Positions 1-42,416 of a DNA stretch of 59,479 bases are shown one piece after another. The notes under the pieces were generated by a model. That model was not told the origin of the DNA. It saw nothing but the letters and a program-made list of their open reading frames with translations, and did no database searches. The translations under genes and the position numbers were made by a program. The stretch covers positions 1-59,479 of the forward strand of contig JBFLYA010000002.1 of NCBI GenBank assembly GCA_040757115.1. The letters are read 5' to 3'. Positions within the stretch are counted from its first letter, which is position 1; every line of letters begins with the position of its first letter. This DNA is from a bacterium (GTDB lineage Bacteria; UBA9089; CG2-30-40-21; SBAY01).

Positions 1-13
1 CTTTGCTTCATTT

Positions 14-205
14 AATGTCCCATAGGGACAACATATTGGTAGAAATAAATATCATACAAATAATGTCCCATAGGGACAACATATTGGTAGAAATAAATAT
101 CATACAAATAATGTCCCATAGGGACAACATATTGGTAGAAATAAATATCATACAAATAATGTCCCATAGGGACAATATATTGGTAGAATTTTTCCACAAA
201 TTTTC
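14..205. repeat. 48-bp tandem repeat, about 4 copies; unit aatgtcccatagggacaacatattggtagaaataaatatcatacaaat
   Basis: The aatg phase recurs at 14/62/110/158, an exact 48-bp period. Units are near-identical and each carries the palindrome tgtcccatagggaca. The last unit runs into the dispersed element listed next. Confidence 0.95.
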
Positions 206-340
206 TACCAATATATCGTTCCTACGGAACTGATTGATTTGTCTATCTATTCCTACCGATATTATGTTCCTAACGGAACGATTATTCTCATGCCTTATTT
301 ATGGGTATTATCCTATGTAGACTTCCAGTTAATAACCGCT
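158..340 (+). repeat. Dispersed hairpin-rich element, copy A (uninterrupted)
   Basis: Contains four small hairpins: tgtcccatagggaca, tggtagaa..ttctacca, gttcctacggaac and gttcctaacggaac. It is near-identical to 40154-40175 plus 40424-40585. A diverged partial copy lies near 6775-6850. Confidence 0.85.
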
Positions 341-464
341 GTAATTGTTTTTAAGCCTTTTTAAACACCGAAAAACGCGAAAAACACGAAAAAAAGATAT
401 TTTTCTCTCTGTTTCTCTGCGTCTCTGCGGTAAAGGATTACCTGAACGGTTACAATAAAACTCA

Positions 465-38921: not shown

Positions 38922-39371
38922 GTGAAAAAAATGAAAAAAATAAGAAAGTTGTTAGTAACAGCGTTTGTTCTTTCGGTGATAGCTACACCTATGTCTGCGT
39001 GGGCAATTAACGATCTCTGCTGGAACATAAACGGCTGGTATATAAAGGTGACGGCTAACTATGAGGGAAGTTATTTAGGAAATCAGATATGGTCTTTGCA
39101 TGGAAAAGGGCCTGCCGGTCCCTGTGAAGGGACAGCCCTTCTTCCTGTAGATGGTTCGTCTATATCAGTCAGTGTTGAATTACTCCAGGCAGGCAATGCT
39201 TATGCTGTAATGCACCAGGCAACTCTTAATCCAAATACACTTAGTGGAACAGGTTATTGGCGTTGGTTTGACAGTAGCGCTGCAGGTAGCTCAACCTGGA
39301 CATTCACAGCACCCGTACCATGGATGCCGGCTGAAACTAAAGGAGACCTTACATCCGCAGGAGTCAAGTAA
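38922..39371 (+). CDS. Small secreted protein of unknown function
   Basis: Signal peptide MKKMKKIRKLLVTAFVLSVIATPMSAWA. Two sampled 60-nt lines are 47% and 50% GC, well above neighbouring genes. Confidence 0.6.
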   Translation: MKKMKKIRKLLVTAFVLSVIATPMSAWAINDLCWNINGWYIKVTANYEGSYLGNQIWSLHGKGPAGPCEGTALLPVDGSSISVSVELLQAGNAYAVMHQATLNPNTLSGTGYWRWFDSSAAGSSTWTFTAPVPWMPAETKGDLTSAGVK

Positions 39372-39449: not shown

Positions 39450-39623
39450 TCAGCCTCGTAGAGGCGTCCTGGGTGTAGTAGTAGGGTCAGGTGACCTTAC
39501 TATTACTACTCTACCGTAAATTAAAAAGGAGGGTAACTATTCACCACGAAGAGCACGAAGAACACGAAATGGAATTTAATGTCTTGTAATTTTCGGTAGT
39601 GTCTGACAATAACTACAATTTTT

Positions 39624-39826
39624 TGTAACCGTTCAGGTTTTGAGTTACTAATATTGATTGAGATTTCGGAACACTTACAAAATATTGAATGTAGAATGTA
39701 GAATATCGAATGTAGAATGTTCAAAGTATAAAAACGGCTAAACAGAAAAATCCAGAAACTTCATCATTCTACATTCAGTATTCTACATTCGATATTCAAT
39801 ATTATTCCTCTTGCCTGAACGATTAC
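39624..39826. repeat. Non-coding inverted-repeat element with 13-bp TIR gtaaccgttcagg / cctgaacgattac
   Basis: The TIR pair encloses aatattgaatgtagaatgtagaatatcgaatgtagaatg and its reverse complement. Its TIR matches 5489-5725 but the interior differs. Confidence 0.7.
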
Positions 39827-39936
39827 AATTTTTTTAACCACAAAGATCACAAAGAGTTTCACAAAAGAGTCAAAGATTTTTGAGAGAATAAATTTTTCCC
39901 TTTATTTCTTTGTGTATTCTTTGTGTACTTTGTGGT

Positions 39937-40048
39937 TATAGCAGTTATTATTCAAAACTTTACTTAGAATTAAATACTCGTGACTACTCGTAGTGAATTA
40001 ACAAGTTATGCGTAAACCATTGCTACACTATGTCAAATTAGTGCTATA
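39937..40048 (-). mobile_element. MITE, short 112-bp variant of the 248-bp family
   Basis: Ends tatagcagttattattcaaaactttact and ctatgtcaaattagtgctata match both termini of the 248-bp copies. The interior is unrelated. Confidence 0.6.
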
Positions 40049-40175
40049 ACTCTCTATATTTTTAGACAATTATGTCCATTTGGCTTGCCTTCCCCCATTT
40101 CTTATGATAAAATGGGGAAAAATAGAATGTGAAAATTCTACCTCATCCTTCATTTAATGTCCCATAGGGACAATA

Positions 40176-40423
40176 TATAGCACTTATTAATCGAAATTTG
40201 ACCAGATATGGCTATGAAATTCCAAATCACAAATTCCAAATTCCATTTAGTGAATTAGTGAATTAAGCGAATTAGCGAATTAGTAAAATCTAATCTCTAA
40301 TTCACTAATCTCTAATTCGCTTTTTGGTATGTGGAATTTGGTGCTTATTTGGGATTTGGTGCTTGGGATTTGGGATTTTTTACTTATCCACCCTGAGTAA
40401 AATTTTGACTAATAACTGCTATA
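40176..40423 (+). mobile_element. MITE copy 1 (248 bp), inserted into the hairpin-rich dispersed element
   Basis: TIRs are tatagcacttattaatcgaaattt and aaattttgactaataactgctata. It interrupts a sequence that is continuous at 170-200 (gggacaatatat|tggtagaa). Confidence 0.8.
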
Positions 40424-40585
40424 TCGGTAAATGGCTTTCCATAAATTTTCTACCAATATATCGTTCCTACGGAACTGATTGATTTGTCTATCTATTGCTA
40501 CCGATATTATGTTCCTAACGGAACGATTATTCTCATGCCTTATTTATGGGTATTATCCTATGTAAACTTTCAGTTAATAACCGCT
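40424..40585 (+). repeat. Dispersed hairpin-rich element, copy B (3' part, downstream of the MITE)
   Basis: Near-identical to 182-340. The 5' part (cttcatttaatgtcccatagggacaatatat) lies at about 40147-40175, with a single 48-bp-type unit. Confidence 0.85.
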
Positions 40586-40655
40586 ATAGTTACCATCAAA
40601 GTTATTTTTGAGCCTAACTCTTTTGATCTTTTTGGTAATCAGTTAAAATTCTTTG

Positions 40656-40684
40656 TTGACAATAGGGAAAGATTTTGGTAAAAT
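40656..40684 (+). promoter_or_regulatory. Orphan sigma-70-type promoter with no downstream ORF
   Basis: TTGACA (40656-40661), 17 nt, TAAAAT (40679-40684), with TGg extended -10. The next ~300 nt have no credible ORF. Confidence 0.4.
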
Positions 40685-40982
40685 ATTCCCATAATGGGCA
40701 AACCCCGTTAGAAATATCTATAAGTAGTAGAGTGATGAGAAATGGGGAGTGAAACAATCAATAGTGTAGAAGTGTAGAATAACCAAATAAGCTTCTATGA
40801 CAGACAGTATAAAGGGGAACTGGGGGATTGCAATCCCGGTAACCGTTTAGGGATATAGCCACAGAGCCACAGAGAACACAGAGAGAATATATAACCACGA
40901 ATGAATACGAATAATAAAAAGCAGGAAAGCGAACCTAAAGGTTCCCACTACACTTATCGAATGTCACAGGTTAATTCGTGTC

Positions 40983-41231
40983 TATAGCAGTTATTAGTCA
41001 AAATTTTACTCAGGGTGGATAAATAAAAAATCCCAAATCCCAAGCACCAAATCCCAAATAAGCACCAAATTCCACATACCAAAAAGCGAATTAGAGATTA
41101 GTGAATTAGAGATTAGATTTTACTAATTCGCTAATTCGCTTAATTCACTAATTCACTAAATGGAATTTGGAATTTGTGATTTGGAATTTCAGAGCCATAT
41201 CTATGTCAAATTTCGATTAATAAGTGCTATA
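40983..41231 (-). mobile_element. MITE copy 2 (249 bp), inverted relative to copy 1
   Basis: Its reverse complement matches 40176-40423 with only 3 small differences seen by eye. Confidence 0.8.
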
Positions 41232-41711
41232 TTTGTGGCTAATTTTCCTAATTCTCTGTGAACTCTATACCTCTGTGGCTGAACGCTTACCAATCCCGTA
41301 CCTGTTTAGCGTGGTCAGAGAGTACAAATGAATGGTACTGACTTAGTGCGAAACCACTTCAAACACAGCAGGTTGTGTAATACAAAATCAAAAATTAAAT
41401 ATTAAAATGCAAAATTACAAATCAAATTTCAAAAAGGACTTCAAGTATTTTAACGCTGAAAGGAAAGAGATAATTTTACTGAACTTTGGCAAAGATAGTT
41501 TATAGTTTATAGTTGATACTTATCAGATAGTAGATAGTTGATAGTTGAAGGACTATAGACTATAAACTATAAACCATAAACTATAAACGAGTTTTGCATT
41601 TTGCTCTTTGGAGGAAATTGATAAAAATAAAGGTTTTAAATACCTGCTTAAAAACTACAGTTTCCTAATTTTGCAGAACTCTAATGGACAATTAATAAAA
41701 GGAGGAAAAGT

Positions 41712-42416
41712 ATGGCTGTTTCATTACTAAAAACAGAAGAGGAACATATTCTTAGAGTCTTACCTACCTTGTTAAAAAGGGATGAACAATTCAAGGGTTC
41801 TCTCTATACCATCTTAGGAGAAACCTTTATTAAAAGGGATGACTTCTCTGAACTTAAGGATATTGTAAAGGAACTTGCACTTGCACAGAAAAAGACAGAA
41901 GTAAGGGTTGAAGAGCTTGCAGAGGCACAGAAAAGGACAGAGGAGGAACTTAGATTACTGGCATCAGAAGTAAAGATTACCAGAAAAGAACTTAAGGATG
42001 ATATTAAGGATACCAGAATAAACTTAAGTGGATTAGGTAAAAGTATGAGCTACGCCTTAGAAAATGAAGCATTTCGAATGATTCCTGGCGTATTGAAGGA
42101 AAAATATGGCATTCAGCTAAAAGAAAAGCTTATCAGGACAAAACTTGGGAAGAAAGAGATAAACATATTCGGTAAAGCTGAAATAAATGGGGAGGAGGTA
42201 GTGCTCGTAGGCGAGACACAACTAAGACTGGATGAGACACGGAAGAAAGACAAAGAAGGTATATTTAAGGACTTAAAAGAAAAAGCAGAGGTAGTAAGTA
42301 AGGAATATCAAGGGAAAAGGATAGAGAAGTTGTTAATTGCCCATTTTGCTACCCCGGGGTTTATAAAAGAGGCAGAAGGAAGAGGCATAATCGTCATCCA
42401 AAGCTTTGAGTGGTAG
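41712..42416 (+). CDS. Coiled-coil protein with C-terminal nuclease-fold-like domain (DUF3782-like)
   Basis: LALAQKKTEVRVEELAEAQKRTEEELRLL repeat, then a C-terminal alpha/beta region (EINIFGKAE..VVLVGETQLRL). From memory it resembles proteins annotated DUF3782. AAGGAGGA RBS. Confidence 0.5.
   Translation: MAVSLLKTEEEHILRVLPTLLKRDEQFKGSLYTILGETFIKRDDFSELKDIVKELALAQKKTEVRVEELAEAQKRTEEELRLLASEVKITRKELKDDIKDTRINLSGLGKSMSYALENEAFRMIPGVLKEKYGIQLKEKLIRTKLGKKEINIFGKAEINGEEVVLVGETQLRLDETRKKDKEGIFKDLKEKAEVVSKEYQGKRIEKLLIAHFATPGFIKEAEGRGIIVIQSFEW

What the first reader, a model, noticed from the sequence alone, without database searches (positions are those of the whole stretch)
39937..41231. A 248-bp MITE family with a filled site and an empty site visible in the same window
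Seen: 40176-40423 and 40983-41231 are about 98% identical in inverted orientation. Each ends in imperfect ~25-bp TIRs, tatagcaSttattaRtcRaaattt. A 112-bp variant with the same termini lies at 39937-40048.

Copy 1 interrupts the hairpin-rich dispersed element exactly where the paralogous copy at 170-200 is continuous. The empty site reads gggacaaTATAT|tggtagaa. The filled site reads gggacaaTATAT[agcac...ctgcTATAT]cggtaaa. That is compatible with a short A/T-rich target duplication.

The interior is itself built of nested low-complexity inverted repeats, and no transposase gene is in the window.

Inference: this is a recently active non-autonomous element whose autonomous partner is elsewhere in the genome.
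Basis: seen in the sequence. Interest (0 to 1): 0.65.

Follow-up and report, generated by a model that had tools for sequence, protein, structure and literature searches.

The report
IS630-derived MITEs nested in repeats
The two 248-bp repeats and the 112-bp variant are small non-coding mobile elements (MITEs) that insert at TA and carry the end sequences of a 1.09-kb IS630-family insertion sequence found in other metagenomes; this is a well-documented but ordinary kind of bacterial mobile DNA.

Summary
Copy c1 (40176-40423) and copy c2 (40983-41231) are 98.4% identical in inverted orientation, and their homology stops exactly at the terminal inverted repeats (TIRs). A 112-bp element (39937-40048) has the same ends.

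- The target duplication is TA, not TATAT. The core is 244-245 bp and reads TAGCA...TGCTA.
- The "hairpin-rich dispersed element" hit by c1 is itself a MITE of the same TIR superfamily, so c1 is a nested insertion.

New here:
- The same TIRs bound 38 distinct ~115-bp MITEs in groundwater metagenome contigs.
- They bound a 291-bp deletion derivative that still encodes the last 82 residues of an IS630-type transposase.
- They bound four full 1086-1087-bp IS630-family elements. Each has a 121-aa helix-turn-helix orfA, an A-run frameshift site and a 203-aa DDE_3 orfB, and each is flanked by TA.
- The window's MITE ends match these IS ends at 24-25 of 27 bases.

In the public run that holds this organism I saw about nine copies' worth of the c2-type end. 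I saw no transposase-coding sequence at 80% identity or more, so a resident autonomous partner is unproven.

Verdict: new member of a known kind, of modest interest.

The parts
40176..40423 (+). MITE copy c1. TA (40176-40177) + 244-bp core TAGCAC...CTGCTA (40178-40421) + TA (40422-40423). The left end is IRR-type (TATAGCACTTATTAATCGAAATTTGAC). The right end is IRR's partner, IRL-type (TATAGCAGTTATTAGTCAAAATTTTAC).
   Evidence: folds as one hairpin, z -6.6
40983..41231 (-). MITE copy c2, inverted relative to c1. TA (40983-40984) + 245-bp core (40985-41229) + TA (41230-41231). 98.4% identical to c1.
   Evidence: A contig joint 40982->41230 (skips 247 = core + one TA) in runs X1 and X2 gives gtgtcTAtttgtgg, seen only in diverged paralogues.
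39937..40048 (+). 112-bp MITE of another subfamily. TA + 108-bp core + TA. The left end is IRL-type; the right end is IRR-type with a 10-nt deletion. The interior is unrelated to c1/c2.
40144..40588 (+). Its right TIR TATAGCGGTTATTAACTGAAAGTTTACATAGGATAATAC lies at 40551-40588 on the minus strand and is followed by TA-side flank. Its canonical left TIR is missing here.
   Evidence: In L007 the same element is bounded by TATAGCAG... and ...CCGCTATA. Contigs join a 39937-39969-type TIR + ATACAAA to 40155.
150..346 (+). Paralogous, uninterrupted copy of the host MITE: the empty site GGGACAATATAT|TGGTAG at 171-188. Its right end is mutated (CCGCTGTA).
   Evidence: 91% identity to the filled copy once 40178-40423 is removed
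1..175 (+). About three tandem 58-bp copies of the 5' part of the host MITE (unit ...atacaaataatgtcccatagggacaacatattggtagaaataaatatc).
   Evidence: read directly
40857..41280 (.). A separate repeat hairpin (arms 40857-40884 and 41253-41280, CACAGAG-type units, 82% complementary). c2 sits between its arms.
   Evidence: (I13)

Best explanation
These are non-autonomous derivatives (MITEs) of an IS630/Tc1-mariner-family insertion sequence.

The parent type is a 1086-1087-bp element with this layout:
- TA | IRL (TATAGCAGTTATTAACCAAAATTT...)
- orfA, 121 aa, helix-turn-helix
- a slippery A8-9 run that would fuse orfA to orfB by a programmed frameshift
- orfB, 203 aa, DDE_3 catalytic domain
- IRR, which encodes the last residues MSN(Y/F)D and the stop | TA

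Inferred mechanism. Internal deletion leaves one IRL-type and one IRR-type end around a short interior. In c1/c2 that interior has become a hairpin of 7-8-nt repeat units. A transposase supplied in trans binds the ~27-bp ends through its N-terminal HTH domain and cuts the element out. It then inserts the element at a TA dinucleotide, which is duplicated. This cut-and-paste mechanism was shown in vitro for ISY100 (PMC2170065).

In this window:
- c1 landed in an older MITE of the same TIR superfamily.
- c2 landed between the arms of another repeat hairpin.
- A 112-bp relative lies next door.

Shown: TIRs, TA flanks, one precise filled/empty pair, further copies in reads, an IS with matching ends, and a deletion intermediate.

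Inferred: the deletion origin, mobilisation in trans, the frameshift, and when and by which enzyme these copies last moved.
For: Within the window:
- c1 and c2 are 98.4% identical, and homology ends at the TIR tips while the flanks are unrelated.
- The TIR pattern has 5 matches against 0 expected.
- Every end in the window and in 90+ loci starts TA|TAGC.
- Removing the core plus one TA restores the paralogous empty site exactly.
- Contigs of run X1 join 40174->40421 (skip 246) at >=97% likeness.

Copy number in reads:
- X1 holds the organism at about 320-340x.
- An exact 60-nt unitig of the c2 end has depth 2850, about 9 copies.
- Long contigs carry c1/c2-type ends with other flanks.
- In X2 and X3 the interior unitigs are about 6x single-copy depth.

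Same TIRs elsewhere:
- MAG contigs labelled Nitrospirota or 'bacterium'.
- 38 distinct-flank copies of a ~115-bp MITE in Ga0180007-9 contigs.

Link to a transposase:
- L083 2484-2774 is a TIR-bounded 291-bp element encoding 82 aa DNTGWHK...YSPDLNPIEELW (Pfam DDE_3, E 3e-8, 34 bits against a cutoff of 28.6; NCBIfam IS630, E 7e-11).
- phmmer and a homologue search led to 203-aa DDE_3 proteins on ~1-1.6-kb contigs.
- Four loci show full elements with orfA and orfB, family TIRs and TA flanks.
- P0002 scores 126.5 bits on NF033545 'IS630 family transposase' against a cutoff of 100.
- The window's MITE ends match the IS ends at 24-25 of 27 bases ungapped.
Against: - No autonomous copy was found in the window.
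- None appeared in the run that holds the organism. At >=80% nucleotide likeness, X1 and X2 cover only the two TIRs of the L083 element. Contigs show presence rather than absence, and a more diverged family member would be missed.
- The TA duplication rests on one within-window filled/empty pair between 91%-identical paralogues, plus joints from paralogous contigs. No allelic empty site was seen at >=98%.
- TA is also the first two bases of every copy, so without empty sites it could not be told apart from the element terminus.
- Read depths summed over contigs are not true copy numbers.
Confidence: 0.88

Rival explanations
1. The three elements are products of local segmental or inverted duplication within one repeat-rich intergenic zone, not of transposition.
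For: c1 and c2 lie only 559 bp apart in inverted orientation, inside a 2.3-kb gene-free zone full of other repeats.
Against: - The repeated segment ends exactly at the TIR tips at both copies, and the flanks are unrelated.
- Contigs of X1 carry the same ends next to other flanking sequences.
- The same TIRs bound elements in many other genomes and a full IS.
Confidence: 0.03
2. They are host-maintained structured repeats, such as heptamer-hairpin, REP-like or terminator/RNA elements. Their conserved ends would serve a cellular function rather than transposase binding.
For: - The element folds as one long hairpin.
- Single TIR-like sequences lie upstream of genes in some loci.
Against: - The ends are those of an IS630-family IS, and the IRR-type end is the coding 3' end of its transposase gene.
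- A deletion intermediate exists.
- There is no Rfam match above threshold.
- Promoter-like sites are not enriched: 10 found against 10.4 expected.
Confidence: 0.05
3. They are MITEs mobilised by a different transposase family that makes short duplications. Candidates are the IS5/IS427 group, IS30, or PIF/Harbinger-like enzymes.
For: No cognate IS630-type gene was detected in the organism's run. Short A/T-rich duplications also occur in those families (established knowledge of IS families).
Against: - The duplication is exactly TA at both independent sites where an empty form is visible.
- The ends match IS630-family elements at 24-25 of 27 bases, and one end is IS630 transposase coding sequence.
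Confidence: 0.03

Closest known systems
RUP (repeat unit of pneumococcus), mobilised by IS630-Spn1
   Same: A small (~107 bp), non-coding, hairpin-forming element with a TA target. Its TIRs resemble those of a resident IS630-family IS. It often inserts into other mobile elements (PMC2229807, PMC3049150).
   Different: - Unrelated sequence and host.
- Here several subfamilies (108, ~115, ~228 and 244 bp) share one TIR type.
- The 244-bp interior is built of 7-8-nt repeat arrays.
- A resident autonomous IS has not been shown.
ISY100 / IS630 (IS630-Tc1-mariner family insertion sequences)
   Same: The parent elements found here (L098-L101) have ~27-29-bp imperfect TIRs, TA flanks, an N-terminal HTH region and a C-terminal DDE domain. 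ISY100 needs only its ~24-30-bp ends in cis and duplicates TA (PMC2170065).
   Different: - The transposase here is split into orfA (121 aa) and orfB (203 aa) with an A8-9 run at the junction, so a programmed frameshift is inferred but not shown.
- The window's elements carry no gene at all.
Correia repeat-enclosed elements (CREE/NEMIS) of Neisseria
   Same: - TA duplication and ~26-bp TIRs starting TATAG.
- Size classes of ~70-157 bp and a long hairpin transcript.
- Their mobilising mechanism has 'not been determined' (PMC2649163).
- The published TIRs (tatagtggattaacaaaaaccggtacgg and variants, PMC5039591) share TATAG, ATTAAC, an A-run and xAC with the ends seen here.
   Different: - The resemblance is weak. 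In an end-anchored alignment against shuffles the best of 28 comparisons gave p about 0.003, and most gave p above 0.05. It is not significant after correction.
- Different phylum.
- No IHF site was tested, and no promoter enrichment was seen here.
Stowaway MITEs of plants (Tc1/mariner-derived)
   Same: TA target duplication, short TIRs, hairpin potential, nested insertions, and many subfamilies sharing ends (established knowledge).
   Different: These are eukaryotic and share no sequence with the elements here.

Membership tests
IS630/Tc1-mariner-derived MITE | Terminal inverted repeats at both ends | tested here: met
   ~27-nt imperfect TIRs on c1, c2 and the 112-bp element. The pattern has 5 matches against 0 expected.
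IS630/Tc1-mariner-derived MITE | Insertion at TA with a 2-bp TA duplication | tested here: met
   Filled versus paralogous empty site inside the window. Contig joints skip exactly core + TA at both c1 and c2. All 38 copies of the 115-bp family are TA-flanked with no longer shared flank. Caveat: the empty sites are paralogues, not alleles.
IS630/Tc1-mariner-derived MITE | No transposase coding capacity | tested here: met
   tblastn of family transposases against the window gives no hit at E<=1. No IS630 motif appears in the six frames.
IS630/Tc1-mariner-derived MITE | Ends match those of an autonomous IS630-family element | tested here: met
   24-25 of 27 bases ungapped to IRL/IRR of L098 and L101. 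Those elements encode HTH + DDE_3 proteins; NF033545 scores 126.5 bits against a cutoff of 100. A deletion intermediate is L083.
IS630/Tc1-mariner-derived MITE | Multiple dispersed copies in the same genome | tested here: inconclusive
Contigs of run X1 suggest about 9 copies of the c2-type end and show other flanks. These are metagenome depths, not counts in the assembly.
IS630/Tc1-mariner-derived MITE | A source of transposase in the same cell | tested here: inconclusive
   X1 and X2 cover only the TIRs of the L083 element at >=80% likeness, whereas X3 has ~1.1-kb contigs on the coding part. A diverged copy cannot be excluded.
IS630/Tc1-mariner-derived MITE | Transposase-dependent excision and insertion | not testable with these tools
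   This needs an in vivo or in vitro transposition assay.
Correia (CREE) elements | The 26-bp Correia repeat at both ends | tested here: inconclusive
   Shared blocks TATAG/ATTAAC/AAAA/xAC, but the shuffle test was weak: best p about 0.003 of 28 comparisons. Sequences were taken from PMC5039591.
Correia (CREE) elements | Internal IHF site and end-generated sigma-70 promoters | tested here: not met
   No promoter-like site lies at the element ends, and there is no enrichment in the zone: 10 found against 10.4 expected. An IHF site was not searched for.

The most novel reading that the evidence does not exclude
The lineage may keep and amplify a whole superfamily of TA-inserting MITEs without a resident cognate transposase, as Neisseria does with Correia elements. 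The partial likeness of the ends (TATAG..ATTAAC.AAAA..xAC) could mean that Correia elements descend from this orfA/orfB-frameshift subgroup of IS630. That would name a candidate enzyme type for a mobilisation mechanism that the CREE literature reports as undetermined (PMC2649163).
Probability: 0.07. Interest if true: 0.7.

Novelty: new member of a known kind. Interest (0 to 1): 0.3.

Why it matters
The result gives a clean, checkable example of MITE biology in an uncultivated groundwater bacterium. One TIR type is shared by a full IS630-family element, a deletion intermediate that still carries the transposase 3' end, and at least four MITE size classes, including one MITE nested in another.

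For annotation, it explains a good part of the gene-free repeat zones in this genome and its relatives. It also gives a 27-nt signature for masking or counting these elements.

The result does not change how MITEs are understood. The only wider lead is the weak resemblance to the ends of Correia elements.

Tried and rejected
- Looking for an autonomous element as a pair of TIRs 0.6-3.5 kb apart in 94 loci gave only chance pairs. ORFs next to solitary TIRs were ordinary genes.
- The viral contig scan for the TIR gave 3 unrelated hits.
I did not resend it and used L083 instead.
- Orthologous locus in sister strains. Exact-product look-ups for both flanking genes and for a 94%-identical homologue found nothing on record.
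- Allelic empty sites. The joints seen at >=90% likeness disappear at >=98%, so they are paralogues.
- TATAT as the target duplication is rejected. It puts the two ends out of register and does not fit c2 (flanks gtgtc/tttg) or the 112-bp element.
- Known RNA family. There is no Rfam hit near any gathering score.
- Promoter function of the ends. No support. The TTGAC in the IRR-type end is the reverse complement of the codons for ...SMS... of the transposase.
- Heptamer hairpins spreading as MITE cargo. Other repeat hairpins in the same zone lack these TIRs, so this is not the general explanation.

Full report
**What is there**

The stretch lies in a 2.3-kb gene-free zone between a 149-aa gene (38922-39371) and a 234-aa gene (41712-42416). 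Copy c1 (40176-40423, 248 nt) and copy c2 (40983-41231, 249 nt) are inverted relative to each other. They differ by three substitutions and one single-base indel, 98.4% identity.

The similarity stops at the tips of the elements, and the flanks are unrelated. A looser search adds a sixth end at 40565-40588.

The 112-bp element at 39937-40048 has a left end 28/31 identical to the c1/c2 end. Its right end equals the other end type with a 10-nt deletion.

The interior of c1/c2 consists of short arrays of 7-8-nt units that mirror each other. The element folds as one long hairpin: DNA dG -39.5 kcal/mol, z -6.6. No Rfam family comes near its threshold.

**Target duplication**

The filled site reads GGGACAATATA|TAGCAC...CTGCTA|TATCGGTA. 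The uninterrupted paralogue at 163-195 reads GGGACAATATATTGGTA. Removing 40178-40423 (244-bp core plus one TA) restores the empty sequence exactly. The two paralogues are 91% identical overall.

Only a TA duplication keeps the two ends in register (TAGCA.../...TGCTA). Only TA also fits c2 (gtgtc TA[...]TA tttg) and the 112-bp element (gtggt TA[...]TA actc). A 5-bp TATAT duplication does not fit.

Public reads give independent support. In run X1, a groundwater metagenome that holds this organism at about 320-340x, one contig joins 40174 to 40421 (skip 246) at >=97% likeness. Contigs in X1 and X2 join 40982 to 41230 (skip 247 = 245-bp core + TA), giving gtgtcTAtttgtgg. At >=98% likeness these joints vanish. 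They are therefore other, uninterrupted copies of the repeats that were hit, not empty alleles of this locus.

**The 'host' is a MITE too**

The element interrupted by c1 ends at 40588 in TATAGCGGTTATTAACTGAAAGTTTACATAGGATAATAC (minus strand), an end of the same family. In locus L007, a MAG contig that is 97% identical over 40475-40588, the same element is bounded by TATAGCAG... and ...CCGCTATA.

Contigs in X1, X2 and X3 join a 39937-39969-type TIR plus ATACAAA to 40155. This gives the canonical left end, which is missing in the window. So c1 is a nested insertion of one family member into another. Copy c2 sits between the arms of a different repeat hairpin (40857-40884 and 41253-41280).

**Copies elsewhere**

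The evidence from reads is as follows.
- An exact 60-nt unitig of the c2 end (41163-41222) has depth 2850 against 321-337 for neighbouring single-copy contigs. That is about nine copies.
- Long contigs at genome-like depth, for example 1538 nt at 305x, end in c1/c2-type tips with other flanks.
- In X2 and X3 the interior unitigs are about six times single-copy depth.

These are metagenome word depths and only rough guides.

A scan of species-representative genomes found the TIR in MAGs labelled Nitrospirota, Nitrospira sp. or simply 'bacterium'. A metagenome scan found it mostly in three related samples, Ga0180007-9. There, a ~115-bp MITE occurs in 38 copies with distinct flanks, a mean of 92% identical to one reference copy. 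Each copy is TA-flanked, with no longer shared flank.

**Link to a transposase**

A six-frame motif scan of all loci found one hit. L083 2484-2774 is a 291-bp element bounded by family TIRs. It still encodes 82 residues, DNTGWHKTK...YSPDLNPIEELW...STYTMSNYD*. This is the C-terminal third of a DDE_3 domain:
- Pfam E 3e-8, 34 bits against a cutoff of 28.6.
- NCBIfam IS630 E 7e-11.

phmmer with this piece against 1.84 billion representatives found 232 relatives. Among them were P0002 (203 aa, 76% identical, ending SICSMSNYD) and full-length 339-344-aa IS630-type proteins. A homologue search with P0002 found many 203-aa DDE_3 proteins on ~1.0-1.6-kb contigs.

Four places were fetched:
- L098, positions 165-1251
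- L099, positions 177-1263
- L100, positions 2-1088
- L101, positions 29-1114

Each is a 1086-1087-bp element with this layout: TA, IRL, orfA (121 aa; HTH_23/28/29/32), orfB (203 aa; DDE_3), IRR, TA. P0002 scores 126.5 bits on NF033545 'IS630 family transposase' against a cutoff of 100.

orfA ends at a run of 8-9 A (TTAAAAAAAAG). There the orfB frame is already open and reads ...LKKKYDLEISYS..., so a programmed frameshift that fuses the two is likely. This is inferred. IRR encodes the last codons MSN(Y/F)D and the stop.

The window's MITE ends match these IS ends without gaps:
- c1-right and c2-left match L101 IRL at 25 of 27 bases.
- c1-left and c2-right match L098 IRR at 24 of 27 bases.

Each MITE has one IRL-type and one IRR-type end, as expected for internal-deletion derivatives.

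**Is the partner in this genome?**

This is not shown. The window has no similarity to the transposases. Laying the four runs on the L083 element at >=80% likeness gave only the two TIRs in X1 and X2. X3, a biofilm metagenome, has 1114-, 1485- and 941-nt contigs over the coding part.

Contigs show presence rather than absence, and family members diverge to 50% protein identity. A distant helper therefore remains possible.

**Mechanism**

By analogy with ISY100, the ~24-30-bp ends suffice in cis, the transposase alone performs excision and integration, and TA is duplicated (PMC2170065). On that basis the window's elements are substrates for an IS630-type transposase acting in trans.

- Shown here: the anatomy, the TA signature and the sequence link to the IS.
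- Inferred: the actual mobilisation, its timing and the frameshift.

**Comparison with known elements**

The closest bacterial analogue is RUP of the pneumococcus with IS630-Spn1 (PMC2229807, PMC3049150).

Correia elements of Neisseria share the TA duplication and the TATAG start. Their published repeats (PMC5039591) share the blocks ATTAAC, AAAA and xAC with the ends seen here. In an end-anchored alignment test against shuffles, the best of 28 comparisons reached only p about 0.003, and most were above 0.05. I treat this as a lead, not a relationship. The Correia mobilising mechanism is reported as undetermined (PMC2649163).

**Verdict**

The corrections are a TA duplication, a host that is itself a MITE, and an unproven resident partner. 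This is a new member of a known kind, of modest interest.

Noticed in passing
window 1-175: The 5' part of the host MITE is tandemly repeated about three times with a 58-bp period before the complete copy. This is a local expansion inside a MITE.
   Followed up: no
window 40656-40684 (+): A near-consensus sigma-70-like site, TTGACA-17-TAAAAT with a TG, lies between c1 and c2 and outside any MITE. The zone as a whole is not enriched in such sites.
   Followed up: partly
L098 137-168 and 1250-1281: An exact 32-nt direct repeat, TATACTTTAGGTTACAAAATACTCCTTCTATA, overlaps both ends of the full IS. The IS core is therefore flanked by the same ~28-bp host segment on both sides. It could be a real long duplication, insertions at two TA sites 28 bp apart merged by the assembler, or an insertion into a tandem repeat.
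   Followed up: partly
L098 ~570-630; L099 ~585-640; L101 ~430-520: A conserved A8-9 run (TTAAAAAAAAG) lies at the orfA/orfB junction of the autonomous IS. The orfB frame is open 37-187 nt upstream of its ATG, so this is a likely programmed frameshift site.
   Followed up: partly
L057 2445-2560 (also L037): One copy of the ~115-bp MITE carries an internal tandem expansion of a 14-nt unit (AGAGCAATTTAAAT, at least 5 copies) just inside its TIR.
   Followed up: no
L003 3397-3561: In another MAG (JASEHU01) the same TIR is followed by a hairpin of 7-nt units (GAAATTT/GGAAATT). This resembles the interior of c1/c2 in design but not in sequence.
   Followed up: no
L090 4261-4390; L061 13350; L030 5097; L035 13233: Solitary TIR-like sequences without a recognisable partner end lie just upstream of ordinary genes, for example before fliW-csrA-flagellin in L090.
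   Followed up: partly
window 39468-41735, read depth in run X1: Almost the whole intergenic zone, not only the MITEs, has summed contig depth 10-300 times the single-copy level. Several other repeat families here are therefore high-copy in this organism or community.
   Followed up: no
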